Shown here: positions 1 to 46,984 of the stretch, piece after piece
Layout: each line of letters opens with the position of its first letter
How positions within the stretch are numbered: position 1 is the stretch's first letter
UHGV virus genome: UHGV-0142121
Length of the DNA: 46,984 bases
Source of the DNA: a virus
Reading direction: 5' to 3' (one strand)
The notes under the pieces: model-generated
What the model saw: the letters and a program-made list of their open reading frames with translations, nothing else
What the model was told of the DNA's origin: nothing
Databases searched by the model: none
Position numbers and translations under genes: made by a program

Positions 1-54
1 AAACGACACACATTATTAAATATACGCGCGTATATTTAATAATGTGTGTCGTTT
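1..54. repeat. Hairpin telomere, left end: 54-nt perfect palindrome (apex between 27 and 28)
   Basis: Reverse complement of 1-27 equals 28-54 exactly; core TATACGCGCGTATA with alternating CG centre as recalled for N15-type telO; palindrome abuts the window start, as expected if a closed hairpin was read through. Confidence 0.85.
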
Positions 55-56
55 AA

Positions 57-212: not shown

Positions 213-2114
213 ATGGCGAAGCTAGGCGATGGCGGAATTGGTAAAATCATCTCTGATTTGGTGGCGGACGTTGACGCTATCGAAGCGTCCGACATCCCAC
301 AGGGAGATAAGACACGAAAATATAAGGCTGCGGCTACACGTGTTAAAAACGCGCTATTTTTAGATAAAAGGAAGTTCCGTGGTAACGGTTTGAAGAAACG
401 CATTACAGCCAATACCTATAACGCGTATATGACCCGTATTCGTAAACAGTTCGACGACCGTTTGCACCATCACTTCACCAGCAGCATTGAAAAGTTAGCG
501 GCAAAATACCCCGCCTACAGTGCTGAATTACAGGCGTGGCAATCTATGCCTGCGGCAAATATTCGTCAGGCATACGGCAATCTACAGGGCCAACTGAAGG
601 AAATTATGCCGCTGGCGGAGGTGCTTTCGGGTATGAAGTTCGGACCGGCTGCGGAGAAAAAATTGACGCGCCTGGCAAAAAAATACCCTGCCTGGAGCAT
701 CTATCTTAACGCGTTGACCAGCCAAGACTGGAAGTCGGTCGAAACCGAAATGCATGCCGCGTTCCAACAGGGAACCCGCTTGTTGGATGATCTGAATGGC
801 CTGAAAATCAACCATGAAATTCTGTATCACCTGCAGTTGAGTCCGGCAGAACGCTCATCGATACAGCAGCGCTGGGGCGAGGTGCTCAGCGAGAAGAAAC
901 GGTCAACTGTACTCTTGGACTACCCCAAATATATGCAGGCTGTGACCGAGCAGATCTACAAGGCGTTTGAACCATCACTTATCACGCAACGTAAGGATAT
1001 GGCGCCGCTGGCGTTCGCGCTAGCAGCCGTATCCGGGCGTCGATTGATTGAGGTGATGGTTCAGGGAGAATTTGAGGTTACCGGCAAGTATGAAGTTATT
1101 TTCTACGGGCAGGCCAAAAAACGAACCGGCGAGGATAAGGGGCGTAAAATTTATGTGCTGTGCGACCCGGCTCTGTTCGTTCAACGTTTAAATGAACTGA
1201 GAAGTTGCCCCGCAGCGGCTGATTTTGACGAAATCAGATCTCTGTTGAACGATGATAGCTACCGGGCCGCAAATGTGCGCATCGCATCAATTCTTGGTAA
1301 CACATTTAACCAGCACGCGAAGCTGTTCTTCGGCGACGACCGCCGAACATTCAAAGACACGCGCGCGATTTATGCGCGTATCACCTATGAGGCGTTTTTC
1401 CGCTACGACCCGCGCTGGAAAAACGTTGATGAGGACGTCTTTTTCTCTGAAATCCTGGGGCATGACGACGAAAATACGCAGCTGCACTACAAACAGTTCA
1501 AACTGCATAATTTCTCACGCAGCTGGCGCCCGGAAACGGGGATTGAAAATAAGCGCCTCGCTGCTCTACAAGCGCTTGACGACCAAATGCCTGGCTTCGC
1601 CAGGGGCGATGCCGGTATCCGTATTCATGAAACAACAAAGCGGCTGGTGGAGGAATCAGCTGATATCGTCATCAACACAAAAATATTACGAGATGCTGGA
1701 TTTAACCCGACGCTAGTTCGCCGGTACCTTGATTTTGTTGCTGAGGCGCTGGCTATGAGCAGTACGATTAACAATGCAGATGCGCCCTCTATTGTCATAA
1801 CCTCTGACGAACTGGATGATGAAGACGACCTCGCTGGCGATAGCGGTGCCGATAGAGAGGAAACCAGTGACGATACCCAGGCGCTGGAAGCTGAAGAGGA
1901 AGGCCGAGAAGATGGCGTGACCGCCGAGGCCGAAGAGGAAAAACCAGTACCAATAGACACTCGTCCACGCTTCTCCGCGCCCGTTCGTAGTGACGACGGC
2001 AGCTGGACGATCCGTTTCAAATACAAGGGGCAGCTATACGCCTGGAGTGGCGCGGCGGATAGTATCAGCAGTGCCATGAAATCAGCATGGTTTGCGTATT
2101 TCCCAGAAAATTAA
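213..2114 (+). CDS. telN: Protelomerase (telomere resolvase) TelN, 633 aa
   Basis: Long stretches match my recollection of N15 TelN (RKFRGNGLKKRITANTYNAYM, MAPLAFALAAVSGRR, FFGDDRRTFKDTRAIYARI, acidic C-terminal tail); GAGGGGGG ribosome-binding site; sits beside the telomere palindrome. Confidence 0.9.
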   Translation: MAKLGDGGIGKIISDLVADVDAIEASDIPQGDKTRKYKAAATRVKNALFLDKRKFRGNGLKKRITANTYNAYMTRIRKQFDDRLHHHFTSSIEKLAAKYPAYSAELQAWQSMPAANIRQAYGNLQGQLKEIMPLAEVLSGMKFGPAAEKKLTRLAKKYPAWSIYLNALTSQDWKSVETEMHAAFQQGTRLLDDLNGLKINHEILYHLQLSPAERSSIQQRWGEVLSEKKRSTVLLDYPKYMQAVTEQIYKAFEPSLITQRKDMAPLAFALAAVSGRRLIEVMVQGEFEVTGKYEVIFYGQAKKRTGEDKGRKIYVLCDPALFVQRLNELRSCPAAADFDEIRSLLNDDSYRAANVRIASILGNTFNQHAKLFFGDDRRTFKDTRAIYARITYEAFFRYDPRWKNVDEDVFFSEILGHDDENTQLHYKQFKLHNFSRSWRPETGIENKRLAALQALDDQMPGFARGDAGIRIHETTKRLVEESADIVINTKILRDAGFNPTLVRRYLDFVAEALAMSSTINNADAPSIVITSDELDDEDDLAGDSGADREETSDDTQALEAEEEGREDGVTAEAEEEKPVPIDTRPRFSAPVRSDDGSWTIRFKYKGQLYAWSGAADSISSAMKSAWFAYFPEN

Positions 2115-2123
2115 TTCACATAA

Positions 2124-2141
2124 CCGGGACCGTGGTCCCGG
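2124..2141. repeat. sopC-like palindrome CCGGGACCGTGGTCCCGG followed by TTTT; possible SopB site and/or bidirectional terminator between convergent telN and repA operons
   Basis: 8-bp inverted repeat around a 2-bp centre, 10 nt after the telN stop; same core as the dispersed TGGGACC..GGTCCCA family. Confidence 0.55.
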
Positions 2142-2277
2142 TTTTACAACCGACCTATCCAGCCCGTAGGGACGAACCTCTAACGGCATCCGGCTGAATT
2201 ATATGCCGAAAACTGTCACCAATATTTCTACCGGATGTTTTGCGAAAATTTCCTCGTTCATCCTCTGCGATAAATCA

Positions 2278-2661
2278 TTATTTAAGCTCCGTTTCTGGAA
2301 ACATTTCCTGCAGCCGCTTTTCGTAGCACACATCGTCGAAATACTTCTGCTCAACTTTCAACTCAAAGTCATTCAGCGTCATTTCTACAGGTCTGATACC
2401 ATAAAGCAGGGTACTTTTATTCATATCAAACATTTCCGTTCCTTCTTTGGTCCCTGCATCTTCCAGAACAGATTGAGCTATGTCAGAAAAGCAGATCGCC
2501 GCGCAGCGAAAATCAGCAAAGGCCCGATGCTCTCCAAACTCAGTCACCACATAAACGACGCGGGTCGGGCCACTGGCGCGGCGTTCAATTTCTCGTGCAA
2601 TATCTTGCTTAAGCTCATCCAGATCGTAGTCAGTTAGCTTTTTTACGTTAAGATCAATCAT
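2278..2661 (-). CDS. Hypothetical protein, 127 aa, acidic, last gene of repA operon
   Basis: ORF with ATGA start/stop overlap to the upstream gene; AT-richer than repA by eye; no recognisable motif. Confidence 0.5.
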   Translation of the reverse strand: MIDLNVKKLTDYDLDELKQDIAREIERRASGPTRVVYVVTEFGEHRAFADFRCAAICFSDIAQSVLEDAGTKEGTEMFDMNKSTLLYGIRPVEMTLNDFELKVEQKYFDDVCYEKRLQEMFPETELK

Positions 2662-3050
2662 GCCCCTACCTCACGTAGTTTCTGGTCGATATAACTTTCA
2701 AGTGCGCCATCTGTCGTCTTTTCACGTTTCAAAAACCATCTATCAGACGAAAATTTCCCTCTTTCCCGTTGGTGAATTAAATCGCCAGTGTCACGAATAG
2801 TTCTGGGAACACCCTGCATGACGATTGCAGGAAGAAACATGACAACGATGAGCAAAACCTTCATCCATGCCGAAGTGAAATACTGTGCCTCGAATATCTG
2901 AGATTCTGGCTCGAAGTAATACTCAATTTTTGCTCCAAATCGTTGCTTGCGGTTTGGCAGCATTTTGTTATGCGTAGCCCTGCTTACGGGAATTCGAACG
3001 AATCCTTTCTCACACAAGTTTTCATATTTGTAGATCACGTTAACCCCCAC
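2658..3050 (-). CDS. Hypothetical membrane protein, 130 aa, single central transmembrane helix
   Basis: Hydrophobic segment WMKVLLIVVMFLPAIVM; translationally coupled to neighbours on both sides. Confidence 0.5.
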   Translation of the reverse strand: MGVNVIYKYENLCEKGFVRIPVSRATHNKMLPNRKQRFGAKIEYYFEPESQIFEAQYFTSAWMKVLLIVVMFLPAIVMQGVPRTIRDTGDLIHQRERGKFSSDRWFLKREKTTDGALESYIDQKLREVGA

Positions 3051-3376
3051 TGGCCATCAGCAAACAGCGCTTCGTATTCGGACGCCGGCAGGCGCTGGCC
3101 CTGAATAGAAAAGTTCAGCCAGCCGCGAGTTTGCGGGTTGCCTTTGTCTTCTTCAGTCTCTCCGTTCCAGCGCTTCTCAGCTTCGCGTACCAGGCATTCG
3201 ACAGCTTTCAGGTAGTCCTCAGTTCGGTACCAGCCGTAGTTGACCGAGCCATCAGTTACCGCCCAGGCGACCTTCTTTTGTTCTTCCTGGATAGCACGAA
3301 GCATTTCGTCGCACTTATTCCGGCAGAACTGCAACTGGACACGATCCAGTGTTTTCAAAAAATCAGTAGTCGACAT
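3035..3376 (-). CDS. Hypothetical protein, 113 aa, immediately downstream of repA
   Basis: ORF 11 nt after repA stop on the same strand; no recognisable motif. Confidence 0.5.
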   Translation of the reverse strand: MSTTDFLKTLDRVQLQFCRNKCDEMLRAIQEEQKKVAWAVTDGSVNYGWYRTEDYLKAVECLVREAEKRWNGETEEDKGNPQTRGWLNFSIQGQRLPASEYEALFADGQWGLT

Positions 3377-3386
3377 AGATATCCCC

Positions 3387-6300
3387 TTAAACCGCCTGCA
3401 ACCGCTTCAGTTCGTTGTATTGGCCATCTGATAGTTGCCACATATTGTCAGCCATAAACAGCCCGGCAACCGTCGCCTGTATCAACCGTGGCGGCATAGT
3501 CGCCAGTTGTGCCAGTTCTTCCGGCGTCAGTGCGGTTCTCAGCCATGCAAATGGCACCGGCATCGCAGCGATAGCCTCTTCAATCGTCGTCAGCGTTGCC
3601 TCAATAAATGCCGTCTCAGCAGATCCAGATTGGGATCTTACATCTATATTTGATCGGCAATCGAGATCCGGTTCTTCCGGTGCCCCCACATCCAGTTTCA
3701 TCTGGACAAACGACAGTGATGCCTCGGCGCGACGCGCCAGAATTCCGTGAATGAATTCCCAGGATTCGGGGACGATTGACCACACGTAACCGAGGCCCTG
3801 TGAACGCGGTAGGCGGCGTTTTTGAGTCGCGTAACCGAATGCCTCACAGATCTGTTTGAAAACCGTCTCGGGGCGTTTCTGGCGGCCTTTAGGGTTTATA
3901 TAGCCACCGAACCGCAGGACGTTGTTGAAACGGTCCGCGGTGGTTGGGTCCATAAGTTTGGCCATAGCTTCCGCCATACCTTCCTGGCTGGCTTCACCGG
4001 CGCCGGTATCTGGGTTAATACCGCAGGTGGAGAAATACTCCCTGGCGGCCTTACGGTGCAGCGATGCGTACGTACGCTGGGTTACTTCCATCACCGGGCG
4101 GCTTTGGACGGTGTAGCCGGTTATTCCTGGCTGCATGCGGTCGAACTGCGCATCAGCTGCTTCGCGGTTGAGCGCGGTGATCGTTACAAATTCGTTACGC
4201 GGCCCTTTGCGGAATTGGTAGGTGAACGTGAAAGCCTGCTGCTCACGGTCAATGCGTGCGGCGGTCATTTCATCCATCGTCATCAGTTCGGCCAGCGTCA
4301 GTTTCTTCTTCCCGCCATCGAGCAGGAATTTCAGAGATTCCGGGCTGACATCCAGCATCAACTCTTTTTCGATATCCCAGCGCGCCAGTTGCGCCTGCTC
4401 ATCTTCAGATAGTGATCGCTTGCCCATCAGTTCGTCGCGTTCGTCTTCGTCCGGGGTTTCCACTTCCATATGGCGCAGAACGGTCATATCCCAGACCCGC
4501 TCTTTCGATGCCTTACGCAGTTCTTTGCCGGTTTCGCTGGCCAGCGAGTCTTCGGCCAAGTGGCTGACGTTATAGCCATCGGCGTAGAGAATGCAGATCA
4601 GGTTGTTGGCGAAATCGTTTCTGGCCTGGGCCTCCATCGCGGCAACTTTAAATTTCATGCGGACATAGGTGGTGTCCGCCAGACCAAGGGAAAGGCGGTC
4701 GCCATCCAGGATGGCGTCGGTAAATTCTTCGTTTATCTCGGCGGTTTCCAGCAGTGCCTGCAGGAACCCACGGCGGATGTTGTCGGCGTTCTCTTCGCGT
4801 ACGCCAGGCAGCTTGTTCAGGCCGACCATAAATTCGGTGGCGGTCCTGTCGCGGCGCAGCATCTGAATGGCGTCGGACGGCACTACCTGGCCGCAGAAGC
4901 AGCCGAAATGGCGGGTGAAGTGCCGTTCTTCGATCGAGACGCCAGAACTGATAGCCGGGCTATAAATCAGGCCATCGTAGAGTTTAGCGCGCTGGTTCGG
5001 CGCGTCGGTAAACGCCACGACTTCCTGATCCGGCTTTGTGTCCTGGCTGACGTAAAGCCATTTCTTTTCTGGCCAGCGGTCGCGCAGCTGCAGCAGCAAC
5101 TGTTCGGCAAAATTGGTTGAGTCGGTGGCCAGCAGGAATTTTTCGCCAGCGGCCACAGCTTTCAATACTTCAACCATTATGCGGTCGGTATCGGTGTAAA
5201 GCACGCGGCGCGCTTCGCGCGTACCGTCGACTTTTTTGTACTTCACATCAACCGGCAGCTCGATGACGTGGATCTGTGTCCAGGTCGACAGGCCGGTTTG
5301 TTCGCGTCTGGCCAGCGCCAGTTCGCAGAGGTCTACCAGGATATCGCTGGCGTCCGCATCAACCAGCAGTGCGTGGTCATCGCTGTACGCGATGGAGTCG
5401 ATAAGGCGATTGAACACATCAACCGGGTGCGCCATCGCTTTACCGGAAAGCGTAGCGCGCAGGCCCTGGGTAGCTTCATCCAGGCCAAAGAAATCGTGCT
5501 TGCGCATCAGCGGTTGCCAGCAGCCCTTCACGATTGAATTGATACAGATCGTCAGCTTGCTGGCATACGGCGCCAGTTCCTGATAGCCGGGGTCCTGATA
5601 GTGCAGGATATCGCAATTCATGCGGCGGCCATCGTCGGCACGCGTCATCATGTCCCAGAGGCCACCGATTAGCGAAACGCGGTGCGCAACCGAAACGCCA
5701 CGCTGCGCGCTGTGCATCATAGGGCGCAGCAGGTGCTTGGATTTGCCCGACCCCATGCCGGCACGGACTATTACCGGGCCATTCAGCGCTTTGATGTAAT
5801 CCAGCACGTCTTTGGTCATGTGCGGTGTATCGAACCGCTTATAGGTGATATGATCGGGGCGTATTGCCGGGTTCGTTACGCGCTCGCTGAATGATCGGAA
5901 AGCCTGGGCCTTGTCGCATTTCTGTTTGAAGGCGCGTTTAACGCGGTTATACACGGTACCGTGCAGCGCTTTGTCGGCGCCGAGCTGGTCCAGCTTCATT
6001 TTTATCAGCGAGATCAGCTCCTGCGGGGATAACTTGGACGGGCATTGCATCATGCCGGCATCAATGCAGCGTACCAGCTGGCGTGAGAACGCGCGGCGAT
6101 CGGAAACCGGCGCAACGGCCAGAGACAGCATTTCAGCATCAAAGGAATTGCCTGGCAGCTGCAGGCGGTTCTGTTTTGAAAACAGCTGGCGGTTAGTTTC
6201 GGTGGCACCACGCGCCAGGTGGAGATCGTTGAAATCGCTTAATTCAGTTTCGCTGCTGTCGAAAATCGGGAATGTGCAACGGACCTGCGGGAATTTCTTC

Positions 6301-7376
6301 ATCACGTCGATGCCGACTCTTAACCCGGTATTGCCCTTTCCATTACGGGCCGACTTCTGGTCGTTATCCAGTGCGCACCAGATTTCCATGCCTGGGTACA
6401 GGCTGACCAGCTGATCAACAACCTTGATAACGTTATTTGCTGACACAGCCACGACAACAGCGTCGAAGCGCTTTTTGGCAACGGCAAACACACTGGCGCC
6501 AGTCGCGAAGCCTTCAACAACGCAGATCCTGGTTGCGCCGCGCAGCTGGCCAATGATGTGGCACGAACCAGCAAAGTCACCGGAATCAACAGCGCGGGTC
6601 TGCAGCTTGTCGTTTCTCTCGGTGATTCGCTGCCAGCCAACAATCGGGCCAACGCGAGATTCCCTGTCTTCCCGGCGGTCATCAATATGAGACAGCGGGA
6701 TAGCCATAACAGTTTGTTTTTTAACCGTTTTAGAATTGGGACCATGGTCCCACTGGGTTACGCGCCTGACGTTGCAGTATGAGAAAATGGAGCTGATACC
6801 TTTCTTCACCGCGTATGGCCATGAACCATCTTCTGCCGGTGCGTTGGCGAATGCGGTGGAGAACTGCAGGTATTCGTTCAGGTCAGCGTCGCGGCGCTGC
6901 GACTCCATAAACACAGAGATAGCCTGCTGGCGTTCACGTTCCTGGCGGCGTGCCTCAGCACGTTTACGCTGTTCCAGCTCGCGCGCGGACAGTGGGACCA
7001 CGGTCCCACCGTTCTGTTCTTTGTACCGGCGATATTCGGCTATAAGGAACTGGAAACCACTCCAGGAGCCAGCGTCAGAGCCTTTACATACGAAGTTAAC
7101 AAACGGGTACTTGATGCCTTCCTGCGAACACTCCATGCGGGAGTAGATCTCAACCTTACCTTTCAGCTTTGGCTCAGTAACGGCAGGACCATGATGGGCG
7201 TACTTTGTGAATTTTTCGGCGGCACCGCGAGAGGCAGAAAGTTGAATATCACTGGCGCATTTATGCCAGTCGATGCCGGCAGCGCTCGCAAGATCACTCA
7301 ATTCATTTGATGCCGCGTCAAGCAGCGAAAACGGGTCAGAGTTAAATTTGTGTTGAAAAAAATCCGTTAATTTCAT
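3387..7376 (-). CDS. repA: Replication protein RepA (primase-helicase), about 1329 aa from ATG at 7376; track ORF extends to a TTG at 7388
   Basis: Size and architecture match N15 RepA; Walker A GMGSGKSK; GGTGA ribosome-binding site before the 7376 ATG. Confidence 0.88.
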   Translation of the reverse strand: MKLTDFFQHKFNSDPFSLLDAASNELSDLASAAGIDWHKCASDIQLSASRGAAEKFTKYAHHGPAVTEPKLKGKVEIYSRMECSQEGIKYPFVNFVCKGSDAGSWSGFQFLIAEYRRYKEQNGGTVVPLSARELEQRKRAEARRQERERQQAISVFMESQRRDADLNEYLQFSTAFANAPAEDGSWPYAVKKGISSIFSYCNVRRVTQWDHGPNSKTVKKQTVMAIPLSHIDDRREDRESRVGPIVGWQRITERNDKLQTRAVDSGDFAGSCHIIGQLRGATRICVVEGFATGASVFAVAKKRFDAVVVAVSANNVIKVVDQLVSLYPGMEIWCALDNDQKSARNGKGNTGLRVGIDVMKKFPQVRCTFPIFDSSETELSDFNDLHLARGATETNRQLFSKQNRLQLPGNSFDAEMLSLAVAPVSDRRAFSRQLVRCIDAGMMQCPSKLSPQELISLIKMKLDQLGADKALHGTVYNRVKRAFKQKCDKAQAFRSFSERVTNPAIRPDHITYKRFDTPHMTKDVLDYIKALNGPVIVRAGMGSGKSKHLLRPMMHSAQRGVSVAHRVSLIGGLWDMMTRADDGRRMNCDILHYQDPGYQELAPYASKLTICINSIVKGCWQPLMRKHDFFGLDEATQGLRATLSGKAMAHPVDVFNRLIDSIAYSDDHALLVDADASDILVDLCELALARREQTGLSTWTQIHVIELPVDVKYKKVDGTREARRVLYTDTDRIMVEVLKAVAAGEKFLLATDSTNFAEQLLLQLRDRWPEKKWLYVSQDTKPDQEVVAFTDAPNQRAKLYDGLIYSPAISSGVSIEERHFTRHFGCFCGQVVPSDAIQMLRRDRTATEFMVGLNKLPGVREENADNIRRGFLQALLETAEINEEFTDAILDGDRLSLGLADTTYVRMKFKVAAMEAQARNDFANNLICILYADGYNVSHLAEDSLASETGKELRKASKERVWDMTVLRHMEVETPDEDERDELMGKRSLSEDEQAQLARWDIEKELMLDVSPESLKFLLDGGKKKLTLAELMTMDEMTAARIDREQQAFTFTYQFRKGPRNEFVTITALNREAADAQFDRMQPGITGYTVQSRPVMEVTQRTYASLHRKAAREYFSTCGINPDTGAGEASQEGMAEAMAKLMDPTTADRFNNVLRFGGYINPKGRQKRPETVFKQICEAFGYATQKRRLPRSQGLGYVWSIVPESWEFIHGILARRAEASLSFVQMKLDVGAPEEPDLDCRSNIDVRSQSGSAETAFIEATLTTIEEAIAAMPVPFAWLRTALTPEELAQLATMPPRLIQATVAGLFMADNMWQLSDGQYNELKRLQAV
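6736..6753. repeat. sopC-like palindrome TTGGGACCATGGTCCCAC inside repA coding sequence
   Basis: Near-perfect 18-bp inverted repeat matching the dispersed family; encodes TQWDHGPN in RepA. Confidence 0.7.
7002..7019. repeat. sopC-like palindrome GTGGGACCACGGTCCCAC inside repA coding sequence
   Basis: Core TGGGACCACGGTCCCA, identical to the F sopC inverted repeat as I recall it; encodes GGTVVPL in RepA. Confidence 0.7.
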
Positions 7377-7405
7377 TATTTCACCCAAAAAAAGACGCTG
7401 CGCAG

Positions 7406-7644: not shown

Positions 7645-7674
7645 ATAATAGCCTCTGACAAGTACGTTTGACAA
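7645..7674 (-). promoter_or_regulatory. Candidate leftward promoter (TTGTCA, 18 nt, TATTAT) that would give repA a leader of about 260 nt
   Basis: Hexamers read by eye on the minus strand just downstream of the cB stop. Confidence 0.3.
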
Positions 7675-7694: not shown

Positions 7695-8324
7695 CTATCT
7701 GGCCTTAACTGCTATAGATTTAGCCACGCAGATAACGGGATGAATCAAAATAATTTCGTCAAGATCGATTATCACGCGCTGAGATCTGTCGTTCGGCGCG
7801 TCGAGAAACACTTTGCCATCACGCTTCGACGCTAACATCCTAATAAACGGGTCATTACCTGATTTTGTGACAACGACCACATCTTCCCCGGTCACCGGCT
7901 CGCGGTTTGGGTCTGCGATCAGCACTTCACCGATATGATACGGCGCCGCGACGTCGTTATCGACCATCAGGCCATACAGGGCCGCATCCTGAACATTGAT
8001 ATCAACGTATTCCCGGCAGTTCTGCGCCAGGCCGCTATTAATCATTTCCAGGTTGGGGCCTGTCGCGGTTGAACCGATAACAGGGACTCCACGAAACACA
8101 TCGCCGCCGGCACCAGTTAAGATCCACTCAACAGGACGGCCCAGCTCGCGCGCCAGCTTGATAGCCAGATCTAACGCGGGCATAGCATCACTATTTTCCA
8201 GGTGTGAAAGTCCTGCCCCGGTAATACCGACGCGTTCAGCTACGGCTCTCACCGAGAACTTTGATTTATTTCGCTTCTTCAGCTCTTCACGGCGAGCCTT
8301 CAGCCAATCACCACGTTTTTCCAT
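7695..8324 (-). CDS. cB: Prophage repressor CB (CI-like), 209 aa: N-terminal HTH plus C-terminal LexA/S24-type domain
   Basis: HTH-like segment VRAVAERVGITGAGLSHLE; divergent from a cro-like gene; position matches the N15 immB region. Confidence 0.8.
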   Translation of the reverse strand: MEKRGDWLKARREELKKRNKSKFSVRAVAERVGITGAGLSHLENSDAMPALDLAIKLARELGRPVEWILTGAGGDVFRGVPVIGSTATGPNLEMINSGLAQNCREYVDINVQDAALYGLMVDNDVAAPYHIGEVLIADPNREPVTGEDVVVVTKSGNDPFIRMLASKRDGKVFLDAPNDRSQRVIIDLDEIILIHPVICVAKSIAVKAR

Positions 8325-45965: not shown

Positions 45966-46448
45966 TTGATTGACAGCGGGGATGACGTAATCAATAAGTT
46001 CATCCCGCAACTAAAGCGCCAGTGTGGCCGTGACAACATCAATGCATTGCTGTTGCTTGATGGGGATAAAAAACTATTCGGCTTTGCCACGGCCACCCTT
46101 TATCAGTTAGGACGGGATGGTATTCCGGAAGATACATATCCGTATGCACTACCACCCGCAATAGCGGTGATGAAAATCCCAATGATTGCCATCGATAAAC
46201 AACTACAAAGGCAAGGTTGGGGGCACGATTTATTGCGTGCAATCCTTGATTACAGCGTTGAGAGCGCTGATTTGGTGAAAGGCATTAAAGGTGTTTATCT
46301 TGATGCAAAAGTAGACGCTCGCTCGTTTTATGAGAGCTTTGAATTCAAAGCTCTCAGCGAAACGGTTAGCGAGAATGGCACTATCCCAATGCTCCTCCCT
46401 ATGGATGTCCTCCGGGAGAGCCGGAAAAACTGGGAGCAGTCCGCATAG
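45966..46448 (+). CDS. GNAT-family acetyltransferase-like protein, 160 aa, TTG start
   Basis: Acetyl-CoA motif Q-x-x-G-x-G (QRQGWGHDLL); no in-frame ATG in the N-terminal 70 codons; no antitoxin-sized partner ORF adjacent. Confidence 0.45.
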   Translation: MIDSGDDVINKFIPQLKRQCGRDNINALLLLDGDKKLFGFATATLYQLGRDGIPEDTYPYALPPAIAVMKIPMIAIDKQLQRQGWGHDLLRAILDYSVESADLVKGIKGVYLDAKVDARSFYESFEFKALSETVSENGTIPMLLPMDVLRESRKNWEQSA

Positions 46449-46916: not shown

Positions 46917-46930
46917 AATTATTGAATGAT

Positions 46931-46984
46931 TAACAGAACACATTATTAAATATACGCGCGTATATTTAATAATGTGTTCTGTTA
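46931..46984. repeat. Hairpin telomere, right end: 54-nt perfect palindrome (apex between 46957 and 46958)
   Basis: Reverse complement of 46931-46957 equals 46958-46984; shares the 40-nt core with the left-end palindrome, outer 7 nt differ. Confidence 0.85.

What the first reader, a model, noticed from the sequence alone, without database searches (positions are those of the whole stretch)
2278..3376. Translationally coupled three-gene module at the 3' end of the repA operon, with a membrane protein
Three small genes (113, 130 and 127 aa) follow repA on the same strand with overlapping stops and starts (16-nt and 4-nt overlaps) and end at the convergent terminator next to telN. The last two look AT-richer than repA by eye, suggesting later acquisition. 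The middle protein has a single central transmembrane helix with soluble domains on both sides; the others are soluble. I recognise no known domain. Tight coupling, small size, a membrane component and position at an operon end are typical of accessory exclusion, abortive-infection or toxin-antitoxin-like cargo. This is one of my candidates for an undescribed system, on purely structural grounds.
Basis: inference. Interest (0 to 1): 0.6.

Follow-up and report, generated by a model that had tools for sequence, protein, structure and literature searches.

The report
Shuffled accessory genes after phage repA
The three small genes at the end of the replication operon of this N15-like linear plasmid prophage are real, but they belong to known, uncharacterised phage gene families that shuffle independently in an already described cargo hot spot, so this is ordinary phage mosaicism and not a new three-part system.

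Summary
Three co-oriented, overlapping ORFs lie between repA and the convergent telN. The middle one has one strong transmembrane helix, and the last two are about 11 points lower in GC than repA. One correction: ORF2 most likely starts at GTG 3038 (126 aa, GTGA overlap), not at 3050. All three are under purifying selection (dN/dS 0.10-0.26).

The reading as an undescribed three-gene system is not supported. ORF1 belongs to the N15 gp35 family. ORF3 is Pfam DUF5448 (P22 EaF, phiKO2 gp33, PY54 ORF33, distantly N15 gp34). ORF2 belongs to PHROG 15458. Each family also occurs alone in unrelated phages. In 43 distinct repA-telN loci every combination occurs and no pair co-occurs significantly. ORF2 arrived recently by recombination: one crossover lies inside ORF3, and the block is 95-100% identical to a Klebsiella phage contig.

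The repA-telN interval is a published variable cargo locus (telocins, antirepressors, TF-smORF switches). There are no PADLOC, Pfam (ORF1, ORF2) or solved-structure matches, so the biochemical function remains unknown.

Best reading: independent promoterless accessory genes expressed by read-through from repA and by translational coupling. Interest is low.

The parts
7645..7674 (-). Candidate sigma-70 promoter (TTGTCA-18-TATTAT) between the cB-like repressor gene and repA. It is the likely start of the transcript that carries repA and the three small genes.
   Evidence: Consensus scan, 10 of 12 matches. By analogy with the N15 CB operator annotated upstream of repA. Inferred, not shown.
3387..7388 (-). 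repA, the N15-type replication protein (1333 aa) and first gene of the operon.
   Evidence: ORF list. The C-terminal 399 aa are 41% identical to N15 RepA and 85-88% identical to relatives L003, L030 and L050.
3035..3376 (-). ORF1, 113 aa, acidic (pI 4.9), soluble. Member of the N15 gp35 family (PHROG 10878).
   Evidence: 65% identical to N15 gp35. phrog_10878 at 1.5e-40. PY54 ORF35 belongs to the same family by hhalign (98.6%). dN/dS 0.10-0.26. 186 clusters in the representative library, none named and, of ten sampled, none with a Pfam match.
2658..3038 (-). ORF2, 126 aa from GTG 3038 (130 aa if from GTG 3050), basic (pI 9.6). Single-pass membrane protein with a small N-terminal beta domain. 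PHROG 15458.
   Evidence: Kyte-Doolittle mean 2.23. AlphaFold2 pLDDT 72 with a helix at 57-75. phrog_15458 at 2.4e-14. Start supported by homologue N-termini and gene calls. dN/dS 0.12-0.15. No Pfam, NCBIfam, PADLOC or PDB match.
2278..2661 (-). ORF3, 127 aa, acidic (pI 4.6). DUF5448 family (P22 EaF-like). It is a chimeric gene with a recombination crossover near 2510-2540.
   Evidence: PF17526 at 1.9e-15 and 57.6 bits. phrog_6018 at 4.9e-47. 70% identical to phiKO2 gp33 and 38% to P22 EaF. AlphaFold2 pLDDT 83. The best BFVD match is N15 Gp34. The 5' part is 95-100% identical to L118 and the 3' part 90-100% identical to L030.
2258..2278 (-). Remnant of a gp33/phiKO2 gp32-type gene: ATG ATT TAT CGC AGA GGA TGA, which reads M-I-Y-R-R-G-stop. 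Its ATG overlaps the ORF3 stop codon (TAATG).
   Evidence: Read from the sequence. N15 gp33 and phiKO2 gp32 start MIYRRGW. Relatives L030, L003 and L118 carry the full gene at this position.
2151..2263 (-). 114-bp structured segment that resembles the sequence directly 3' of a tnpB gene in a related phage. Probably a remnant of an IS200/IS605 right end (omega-RNA region).
   Evidence: 77% identical to L030:7367-7477. The adjacent L030 ORF matches OrfB_IS605 at 2.4e-25 and the Cas12f1-like TNB domain at 2.6e-24. RNA fold z-score -3.0. No Rfam match.
2124..2141 (.). G+C-rich hairpin shared by the convergent telN and repA-operon transcripts. Candidate bidirectional terminator.
   Evidence: Read from the sequence. 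phiKO2 has a 'putative bidirectional' terminator annotated at the same place after its protelomerase gene. Not flagged by the consensus scan.
213..2114 (+). telN (protelomerase, 633 aa), the convergent neighbour that closes the locus.
   Evidence: 56-58% identical to the protelomerases of N15 and phiKO2. The near-identical gene on L114 carries the TelK/ResT Pfam domains.

Best explanation
The three ORFs are independent, individually mobile accessory genes of temperate-phage early operons. They are of the same kind as the genes of the lambda nin region and the P22 ea region. Here they are stacked at the distal end of the repA transcription unit, inside the repA-telN interval, which is the known hypervariable cargo locus of N15-like telomere phages.

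How they are expressed (inferred from the anatomy):
- They have no promoter of their own.
- They are transcribed by read-through from the repressor-controlled repA promoter. That would give a low level in the plasmid prophage and a high level after derepression.
- They are translated by coupling: a 10-nt gap after repA, then GTGA and ATGA stop/start overlaps.
- The transcript ends at the hairpin shared with telN.

How they got here (shown):
- The ORF1-ORF2 block and the 5' third of ORF3 were imported by homologous recombination from Klebsiella/Enterobacter-type telomere phages.
- The 3' part of ORF3 is native to the backbone.
- A gp33-type gene that used to follow ORF3 was lost. It left six codons next to a remnant of an IS200/IS605 end.

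What they do (inferred, low certainty):
- Each protein acts on its own.
- ORF2 inserts into the inner membrane and modifies an envelope process, such as entry of competing phage DNA.
- ORF1 and ORF3 are small acidic cytoplasmic proteins that most likely bind and modulate a host or competitor protein.
- None is needed for replication of the linear plasmid.
For: Family assignments:
- ORF1 is 65% identical to N15 gp35 and matches phrog_10878.
- ORF3 is DUF5448, P22 EaF-like, close to phiKO2 gp33 and PY54 ORF33, and distantly related to N15 gp34.
- ORF2 matches phrog_15458.

Independence of the three genes:
- ORF2 homologues stand alone after a DnaB-like helicase at the head of the nin region of Pectobacterium prophages. 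They also occur in an ea-like region next to int in Citrobacter prophages, and between the large terminase and portal genes of Salmonella phage CF-SP1.
- DUF5448 sits in the P22 ea region and in a nin region, without the other two genes.
- The core of ORF1 occurs in Vequintavirinae myoviruses and in a Pseudomonas temperate phage.
- In 56 RepA-anchored loci (43 distinct) all combinations occur and 7 loci have none of the three classes. Among these 56 IMG/VR loci the window's exact order occurs only in the window itself. Fisher tests give p = 0.31, 0.086 and 1.0.

Mosaic joints:
- ORF2 is absent from the relatives with the closest RepA, where the gp35-like and DUF5448 genes lie 8 bp apart.
- Window 3038 to about 2520 is 95-100% identical to L118, and the rest of ORF3 is 90-100% identical to L030.
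- Within the first 9 kb of the window, only the ORF1-ORF2 block has megablast matches in PLSDB.

Operon anatomy: overlaps and ribosome-binding sites, no internal promoter on the coding strand, and a candidate promoter upstream of repA.

Literature:
- The repA-telN interval is a variable locus, with 274 distinct loci described (PMC10432266).
- It holds the telocin-immunity cassettes of Klebsiella telomere phages (PMC12042878). I confirmed this on NAR688, where ImmA directly follows the gp35-like gene.

All three ORFs are under purifying selection.
Against: - The same three functional classes recur next to repA in N15, PY54 and the window: a gp35-like protein, a DUF5448/gp34-like protein and a small hydrophobic protein. 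They were all present in 8 of 43 distinct loci.
- DUF5448/gp34 shows a weak tendency to co-occur with a hydrophobic partner (odds ratio 4.8, p = 0.086, not corrected for shared ancestry).
- Tight translational coupling is also what a true multi-subunit system would show.
- No biochemical function is established for any of the three families, so independent action is inferred from distribution only.
- Transcription from the repA promoter was not measured.
Confidence: 0.68

Rival explanations
1. The three genes form one undescribed three-component exclusion, abortive-infection or toxin-antitoxin-like system. ORF2 would be the membrane effector and ORF1 and ORF3 its regulators.
For: Tight coupling with a 4-nt overlap at each junction. 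A strong transmembrane helix in ORF2. Position in a cargo locus that in other telomere phages carries toxin-immunity pairs. The identical trio is present in at least 4 other samples.
Against: No PADLOC match for any of the three. Free assortment in 43 distinct loci, with no significant pairwise association. Each family stands alone in unrelated phages. ORF2 was inserted very recently between genes that are adjacent in the closest relatives. The other samples with the trio are 99.9% identical in DNA, so they are the same phage and not independent conservation. No toxin-like, nuclease, kinase or NTPase domain was found.
Confidence: 0.07
2. A two-component unit rather than three. A soluble DUF5448/gp34-type (or gp35-type) protein would work with a small membrane protein whose type is interchangeable (ORF2-type or gp33-type).
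For: PY54 has gp35-like, gp33-like and DUF5448 genes in the same class order as the window. 14 of 16 distinct loci with DUF5448/gp34 also carry a hydrophobic partner (odds ratio 4.8, p = 0.086). ORF2-DUF5448 adjacency with a 4-nt overlap also occurs in L118. The window lost the gp33-type gene and gained ORF2.
Against: The association is not significant and is not corrected for shared ancestry. ORF2-type and gp33-type genes coexist in L118, so they are not alternatives. The hydrophobic segment of the gp33 family is only borderline (best 19-residue mean 1.18). P22 EaF and the nin-region DUF5448 have no such partner, and ORF2 homologues in lambdoid prophages and CF-SP1 have no DUF5448 neighbour. 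12 of 43 loci have gp35 plus a hydrophobic partner without DUF5448.
Confidence: 0.1
3. Accessory factors of RepA-driven replication or of maintenance of the linear plasmid, for example membrane attachment of the replisome or copy-number tuning.
For: Constant position directly after repA across N15, phiKO2, PY54 and the window. An ORF2 homologue sits directly after the replicative helicase gene in Pectobacterium prophages. The genes are co-transcribed with repA (inferred).
Against: [quoted passage not shown] 7 of 43 distinct loci have none of these genes. The families also occur in the ea region, in the late region and in virulent phages with unrelated replication systems.
Confidence: 0.08
4. 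A lysis-lysogeny input. This locus holds the N15 antirepressor operon and TF-smORF switches in other telomere phages, and this phage has a repressor with no detectable protease domain and no ant operon. One of the small proteins would then be an antirepressor.
For: The repA-telN locus houses such modules (PMC10432266; N15 and phiKO2 annotation). No AntA, AntB or AntC homologue exists anywhere in the window. The repressor shows only a helix-turn-helix domain and no Peptidase_S24 match.
Against: The genes are co-oriented with repA and have no promoter of their own, so they would be made whenever RepA is made, which includes the lysogen. There is no transcription factor gene and no divergent small ORF. 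There is no similarity to AntA, AntB or Qtip-type proteins. The same families coexist with a full ant operon in most relatives.
Confidence: 0.04
5. ORF2 is an orphan bacteriocin (telocin) immunity protein. It occupies the slot directly after the gp35-like gene that ImmA occupies in Klebsiella phage NAR688.
For: Same slot and orientation as ImmA. ORF2 is an inner-membrane-type protein.
Against: No Colicin_im or any other Pfam match even at E = 1. ORF2 has one transmembrane helix, whereas ImmA has four hydrophobic helices (PMC12042878). No toxin gene is present in the window locus. Homologues sit in lambdoid nin and ea regions and between the terminase and portal genes of CF-SP1.
Confidence: 0.03

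Closest known systems
Genes 33-36 of phage N15, gp31-34 of phiKO2 and ORF33-35 of PY54: the hypothetical genes between repA and the next operon or tel
   Same: Same position, strand and coupling directly after repA. ORF1 belongs to the family of N15 gp35 and PY54 ORF35. ORF3 belongs to the family of phiKO2 gp33 and PY54 ORF33 and is distantly related to N15 gp34. A six-codon remnant of the N15 gp33 / phiKO2 gp32 / PY54 ORF34 gene is still present.
   Different: ORF2 (PHROG 15458) is not present in N15, phiKO2 or PY54. The gp36-type and full gp33-type genes are missing. As in PY54, the locus runs straight into telN, without the antC-icd-antA-antB operon found in N15 and phiKO2. None of these genes has a known function.
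P22 EaF and Pfam DUF5448 (PF17526)
   Same: ORF3 scores 57.6 bits against a gathering cut-off of 25 and is 38% identical to P22 EaF over 86% of its length. Both lie in the distal, non-essential part of an early operon.
Telocin-immunity cassettes (TelA-ImmA to TelE-ImmE) in the repA-telN locus of Klebsiella telomere phages (PMC12042878)
   Same: Same locus and same anchor gene. In NAR688 the gp35-like gene (86.5% identical to ORF1) is followed directly by ImmA and the convergent TelA. That paper found both TelA and ImmA expressed in the lysogen.
   Different: The window has no colicin-type toxin and no Colicin_im protein. In that paper's terms it corresponds to a 'Tel0' phage. ORF2 has one transmembrane helix, not four.
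TF-smORF and VqmA-Qtip lysis-control modules between repA and telN in linear plasmid-like phages (PMC10432266)
   Same: Same variable interval between convergent repA and telN. That paper catalogues 274 distinct versions of the interval.
   Different: Those modules consist of a transcription factor plus a counter-oriented small ORF that inactivates the repressor. The window has no transcription factor gene, and all three genes are co-oriented with repA.
Small accessory genes of the lambda nin region and P22 ea region, and 'morons' of temperate phages
   Same: Small, non-essential, individually exchangeable genes with atypical GC content, stacked with overlapping stops and starts in early operons. 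Homologues of ORF2 and ORF3 actually lie in nin and ea regions.
   Different: Classical morons carry their own promoter and terminator. These genes appear to depend on read-through from repA.

Membership tests
Pfam DUF5448 (PF17526), for ORF3 | Score above the Pfam gathering threshold (25 bits) over most of the model | tested here: met
   57.6 bits, E = 1.9e-15, model positions 2-114 of 118. Homologues carry a precomputed PF17526 assignment.
N15 gp35 family (PHROG 10878), for ORF1 | Full-length sequence similarity to N15 gp35 and to the PHROG profile | tested here: met
   65% identity over 110 aa. phrog_10878 at E = 1.5e-40 over profile positions 1-104 of 104.
PHROG 15458, for ORF2 | Significant match to the profile over most of its length | tested here: met
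   E = 2.4e-14, profile positions 5-108 of 131. Function category: unknown.
Known anti-phage defence systems (PADLOC-DB v2) | At least one protein matching a model of a known or candidate defence system | tested here: not met
   No family matched any of the three proteins at E up to 1.
Multi-gene system in the sense of toxin-antitoxin, abortive infection or exclusion | The component genes are co-inherited: they keep company across genomes and genomic contexts | tested here: not met
   All combinations were seen in 43 distinct loci. Fisher p = 0.31, 0.086 and 1.0. Each family was found alone in other phage types.
Multi-gene system in the sense of toxin-antitoxin, abortive infection or exclusion | A toxic effector that is neutralised by a partner, or a protection phenotype | not testable with these tools
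   Needs expression and phage-challenge experiments.
Telocin / pore-forming bacteriocin plus immunity cassette | A Colicin pore-forming domain protein and a multi-pass Colicin_im-type immunity protein | tested here: not met
   The positive control NAR688 gives PF01024 and PF03857. The window proteins give neither.
TF-smORF / antirepressor lysis-control module | A DNA-binding transcription factor with a counter-oriented small ORF, or homology to N15 AntA, AntB or AntC | tested here: not met
   No helix-turn-helix protein and no divergent small ORF lie in 2115..3386. tblastn with N15 gp30-32 finds nothing in the window.
RepA-operon member (co-transcribed with repA) | Same strand, no intervening terminator or promoter, coupled start codons | tested here: met
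   A 10-nt gap after repA and 4-nt overlaps. No minus-strand promoter-like site. The only minus-strand terminator-like match is a weak 5-bp stem inside ORF3, and the total number of such sites is no more than the shuffled-sequence expectation. Transcription itself was not measured.

The most novel reading that the evidence does not exclude
The small soluble proteins of this locus (gp35 family, DUF5448/gp34, perhaps phiKO2 gp31) may form one divergent superfamily built on a helix, beta-hairpin, helix core. These proteins would work with an interchangeable small inner-membrane partner (ORF2-type or gp33-type) as a previously unrecognised two-part membrane-associated module of telomere phages. 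Such a module could, for example, exclude superinfecting phage DNA or sense envelope stress. It would be kept next to repA because it must be expressed in the plasmid prophage.
Probability: 0.1. Interest if true: 0.5.

Novelty: new member of a known kind. Interest (0 to 1): 0.2.

Why it matters
As it stands, this matters little. It is a new combination of three known but uncharacterised phage gene families in a locus already described as the variable cargo site of telomere phages.

It has some practical value. It shows that the first gene after repA (the gp35 family) is the conserved anchor, and that cargo is exchanged downstream of it by homologous recombination. That cargo includes telocin-immunity cassettes, membrane proteins and DUF5448 genes. 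The window gives a cleanly resolved example, with a crossover inside a gene.

The three families are widespread in temperate enterobacterial phages and have no assigned function, no solved structural relative and no defence-database match. They are therefore reasonable but unexceptional candidates for screens of phage accessory genes (anti-defence, exclusion, host takeover).

Tried and rejected
Searches that found nothing useful:
- PADLOC: no match.
- Pfam: only sub-threshold chance matches for ORF1 and nothing for ORF2.
- NCBIfam: only sub-threshold noise.
- PDB sequence profiles: only low-complexity matches to designed repeat proteins, with no stretch passing on its own. Rejected as compositional.
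- BFVD: only N15 Gp34 for ORF3.
- Rfam: nothing in the window, at the gathering thresholds or at E up to 1 across the locus.
- The genome-contig scan with the gp35 alignment returned a single locus.
- No E. coli genome matches the 114-bp segment.
- A literature search for DUF5448 found no paper, and a search for P22 EaF found nothing functional.

Tools or sources that were unavailable:
- The afdb50 library was unavailable.
- The phiKO2 genome paper is not held.

Ideas tested and dropped:
- ORF2 and N15 gp33 as distant homologues. Both start MIY/VIY and look similar in layout, but hhalign gives probability 0.1%. They also coexist in L118.
- gp35 and DUF5448 as clear paralogues. hhalign on the full alignments gives 91.5% and E = 8.7e-7. 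The score depends on long DUF5448 forms such as phiKO2 gp33, which carry a gp35-like N-terminus (MTSTTD.L..LD). With columns restricted to the window protein it falls to 3.3%. This is left as an open possibility only.
- ORF2 as consistently linked to replication genes. Contradicted by its position between the terminase and portal genes in CF-SP1 and next to int in Citrobacter prophages.
Full report
CONTEXT

The window is a complete N15-like linear plasmid prophage.
- telN lies at 213..2114 (+) and repA at 3387..7388 (-).
- A cB-like helix-turn-helix repressor gene lies at 7695..8324 (-).
- Partition genes lie near the right end.
- Both ends of the window carry the full telomere palindrome ...ACACATTATTAAATATACGCGCGTATATTTAATAATGTGT....

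The finding concerns the interval between the convergent repA and telN genes.

OBSERVATION

The three minus-strand ORFs exist as described: 3035..3376, 2658..3050 and 2278..2661.
- ORF1 has a GGGGA ribosome-binding site and starts 10 nt after the repA stop.
- ORF3 starts with an ATGA overlap, preceded by GAGG/GGGG.
- ORF2 is listed from the first GTG (3050, 130 aa, 16-nt overlap). The in-frame GTG at 3038 has a GGGGG site 5 nt upstream and overlaps the ORF1 stop as GTGA. Homologues begin at exactly that residue (MTYKYEN...). Gene callers on near-identical contigs give 126 aa with a 4-nt overlap. I therefore take ORF2 as 2658..3038.

The other parts of the observation also hold.
- The transmembrane helix is strong. 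The best 19-residue Kyte-Doolittle mean is 2.23, and AlphaFold2 gives a helix at 57-75.
- GC content is 0.535, 0.438 and 0.448 for ORF1, ORF2 and ORF3, against 0.555 for repA.
- A hairpin at 2124..2141 follows telN by 10 nt.
- All three ORFs are under purifying selection, with dN/dS 0.10-0.26 against several homologues each. They are real genes.

WHAT THE PROTEINS ARE

ORF1
- It is 65% identical to N15 gp35 and matches phrog_10878 at 1.5e-40.
- PY54 ORF35 belongs to the same family (hhalign 98.6%).
- An exhaustive profile search finds 186 clusters at 50% identity. Of ten diverse members sampled, none has a Pfam domain and the only names found are 'hypothetical protein'.
- The core of the protein also occurs in Vequintavirinae myoviruses, near a DNA ligase gene, and in a Pseudomonas temperate phage, next to int.

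ORF3
- It is Pfam DUF5448 (57.6 bits, cut-off 25) and phrog_6018.
- It is 70% identical to phiKO2 gp33 and 38% identical to P22 EaF, and PY54 ORF33 is also DUF5448.
- N15 gp34 is a distant relative. Profile comparison gives 89.8% probability and E = 1.8e-6. Independently, N15 Gp34 is the best BFVD match of the ORF3 model (probability 0.99).

ORF2
- It matches phrog_15458 and nothing in Pfam, NCBIfam, PADLOC or the PDB.
- Homologues stand alone in three other settings:
  - after a DnaB-like helicase gene at the head of the nin region of Pectobacterium prophages;
  - in an ea-like region next to int in Citrobacter prophages;
  - between the large terminase and portal genes of Salmonella phage CF-SP1.

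ORF1 and ORF3 are acidic (pI 4.9 and 4.6) and ORF2 is basic (pI 9.6).

IS IT ONE SYSTEM?

I anchored on the RepA C-terminus and collected 62 IMG/VR loci. Of these, 56 (counting the window) reach telN and 43 are distinct.

I scored three classes: gp35-like; DUF5448 or gp34; and a hydrophobic partner of ORF2 type or gp33 type. The counts were:

| gp35-like | DUF5448/gp34 | hydrophobic partner | distinct loci |
|---|---|---|---|
| yes | no | yes | 12 |
| yes | yes | yes | 8 |
| no | no | no | 7 |
| no | yes | yes | 6 |
| yes | no | no | 4 |
| no | no | yes | 4 |
| yes | yes | no | 2 |

- Gene order also varies. Among these loci the window's exact order (gp35-like, ORF2, DUF5448) occurs only in the window itself.
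- Pairwise Fisher tests are not significant (p = 0.31, 0.086 and 1.0), and they are not corrected for shared ancestry.
- The hydrophobic segment of the gp33 family is only borderline.
- ORF2-type and gp33-type genes coexist in a Klebsiella contig, L118, so they are not alternatives.
- The at least four other samples with the same trio are 99.9% identical in DNA. They are the same phage, not independent conservation.

HOW THE MODULE AROSE

- In the relatives with the closest RepA (L030 and L003, 85% RepA C-terminus), the gp35-like and DUF5448 genes lie 8 bp apart and a gp33-like gene follows. ORF2 is absent.
- The ORF1-ORF2 block (3376 to 2653) is 84% identical in DNA to Enterobacter and Klebsiella telomere plasmids whose RepA C-terminus is only about 43% identical. 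It is the only part of the first 9 kb with megablast matches in PLSDB.
- From 3038 to about 2520 the window is 95-100% identical to L118. From about 2465 to 2300 it is 90-100% identical to L030. ORF3 is therefore a chimera, with a crossover near 2510-2540.
- Directly after the ORF3 stop, the sequence TAATGATTTATCGCAGAGGATGA encodes M-I-Y-R-R-G-stop. These are the first six codons of the gp33-type gene.
- This remnant is joined to a 114-bp structured segment (2151..2263, fold z-score -3.0). The segment is 77% identical to the sequence just 3' of a tnpB gene in L030. The gp33-type gene was therefore probably lost in an event involving an IS200/IS605 element.

WHAT IS KNOWN ABOUT THE LOCUS

- N15 and phiKO2 carry hypothetical genes 33-36 and gp31-34 after repA, followed by the antirepressor operon.
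- PY54 has three small genes between repA and tel, in the same class order as the window.
- The repA-telN interval is described as a variable locus, with 274 distinct versions that hold lysis-control modules (PMC10432266).
- In Klebsiella telomere phages the same interval holds telocin-immunity cassettes that are expressed in lysogens (PMC12042878). I confirmed on NAR688 that ImmA (Colicin_im) directly follows the gp35-like gene and that TelA (Colicin pore-forming domain) is convergent to it.
- The window has no such toxin, and N15 AntA, AntB and AntC have no homologue anywhere in it.

MECHANISM I COMMIT TO

These are independent, promoterless accessory genes.
- They are expressed by read-through from the repressor-controlled repA promoter (candidate at 7645..7674) and by translational coupling.
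- The transcript ends at the hairpin shared with telN.
- This much is inferred from the anatomy. It is consistent with detection, by proteomics in the NAR688 lysogen, of two cargo products of this locus, TelA and ImmA.
- Each protein probably acts alone. ORF2 would act in the inner membrane. ORF1 and ORF3 would act as small acidic binders of host or competitor proteins.
- These functional statements are inference from size, charge, localisation and the genomic company the genes keep (nin and ea regions). They are not results.

VERDICT

It is wrong that the proteins are unrecognisable and that they form one three-gene system.
- Novelty: a new combination of members of known families of unknown function, in a known variable locus.
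- Interest is low (0.2).
- The most novel reading not excluded is a two-part module of a soluble protein plus an interchangeable membrane partner. I give it about 10%.

Noticed in passing
window 2258-2278 and 2151-2263 (minus strand): A six-codon remnant (MIYRRG-stop) of a gp33/phiKO2 gp32-type gene overlaps the ORF3 stop codon. It is joined to a 114-bp structured segment that is 77% identical to the sequence directly 3' of a tnpB gene in a related phage (L030:7367-7477, with tnpB at L030:7539-8312). This looks like a remnant of an IS200/IS605 right end or omega-RNA, and it suggests that the gene was lost through an IS-mediated deletion.
   Followed up: partly
window 2500-2545 (inside ORF3): A recombination crossover lies inside the DUF5448 gene. 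The 5' side (together with all of ORF2) is 95-100% identical to a Klebsiella pneumoniae telomere-phage contig (L118). The 3' side is 90-100% identical to the relatives with the closest RepA (L030).
   Followed up: yes
window 1-55 and 46930-46984: Both ends of the window contain the complete telomere palindrome (…ACACATTATTAAATATACGCGCGTATATTTAATAATGTGT…). The assembly apparently read around the hairpin telomeres, so the window is a whole linear plasmid prophage from telomere to telomere.
   Followed up: partly
window 7695-8324 (-) and the whole window: The cB-like repressor shows only helix-turn-helix domains and no Peptidase_S24 match. The N15 antirepressor operon (AntA, AntB, AntC/Icd) has no homologue anywhere in the window. 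In a close relative (L050) the gp31- and gp32-like ant genes lie on the other side of telN. How this phage is induced is unclear.
   Followed up: partly
window 45966-46448 (+): A GNAT-family acetyltransferase gene sits next to the right telomere, beyond the partition genes. It is possibly another cargo gene.
   Followed up: no
L002:5495-6043 (phiKO2 gp33) and the long (171-190 aa) DUF5448 forms P0010, P0016, P0051 and P0053: Long DUF5448 proteins carry an N-terminus (MTSTTD.L..LD) that matches the N-terminus of the gp35 family. Either they are gp35::DUF5448 chimeras or the two families are distantly related. This inflates the profile-profile score between the families (91.5% against 3.3%).
   Followed up: partly
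L048 (Klebsiella phage NAR688) 3855-5974; also L076, L077, L074 and L096: In NAR688 the gp35-like gene is followed directly by ImmA (Colicin_im) and the convergent TelA (Colicin pore-forming domain). Several IMG/VR relatives have about 2 kb of unassigned cargo in the same slot after the gp35-like gene. These may be further telocin cassettes.
   Followed up: partly
L112:2411-2740 (Serratia phage ChuuTotoro) and L113:2462-2842 (Pseudomonas phage PseuP_222): The core of the gp35 family (about residues 28-102 of ORF1) occurs in virulent Vequintavirinae myoviruses among small early genes near a DNA ligase gene. It also occurs in a Pseudomonas temperate phage next to the integrase gene. The family is therefore not specific to telomere phages.
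   Followed up: partly
L043:7457-7828 (Pectobacterium prophage): The same lambdoid prophage carries an ORF2 homologue directly after the helicase gene and a DUF5448 gene about 2 kb further on in the nin region, between ninE and ybcO. The two families share a habitat without being adjacent.
   Followed up: no
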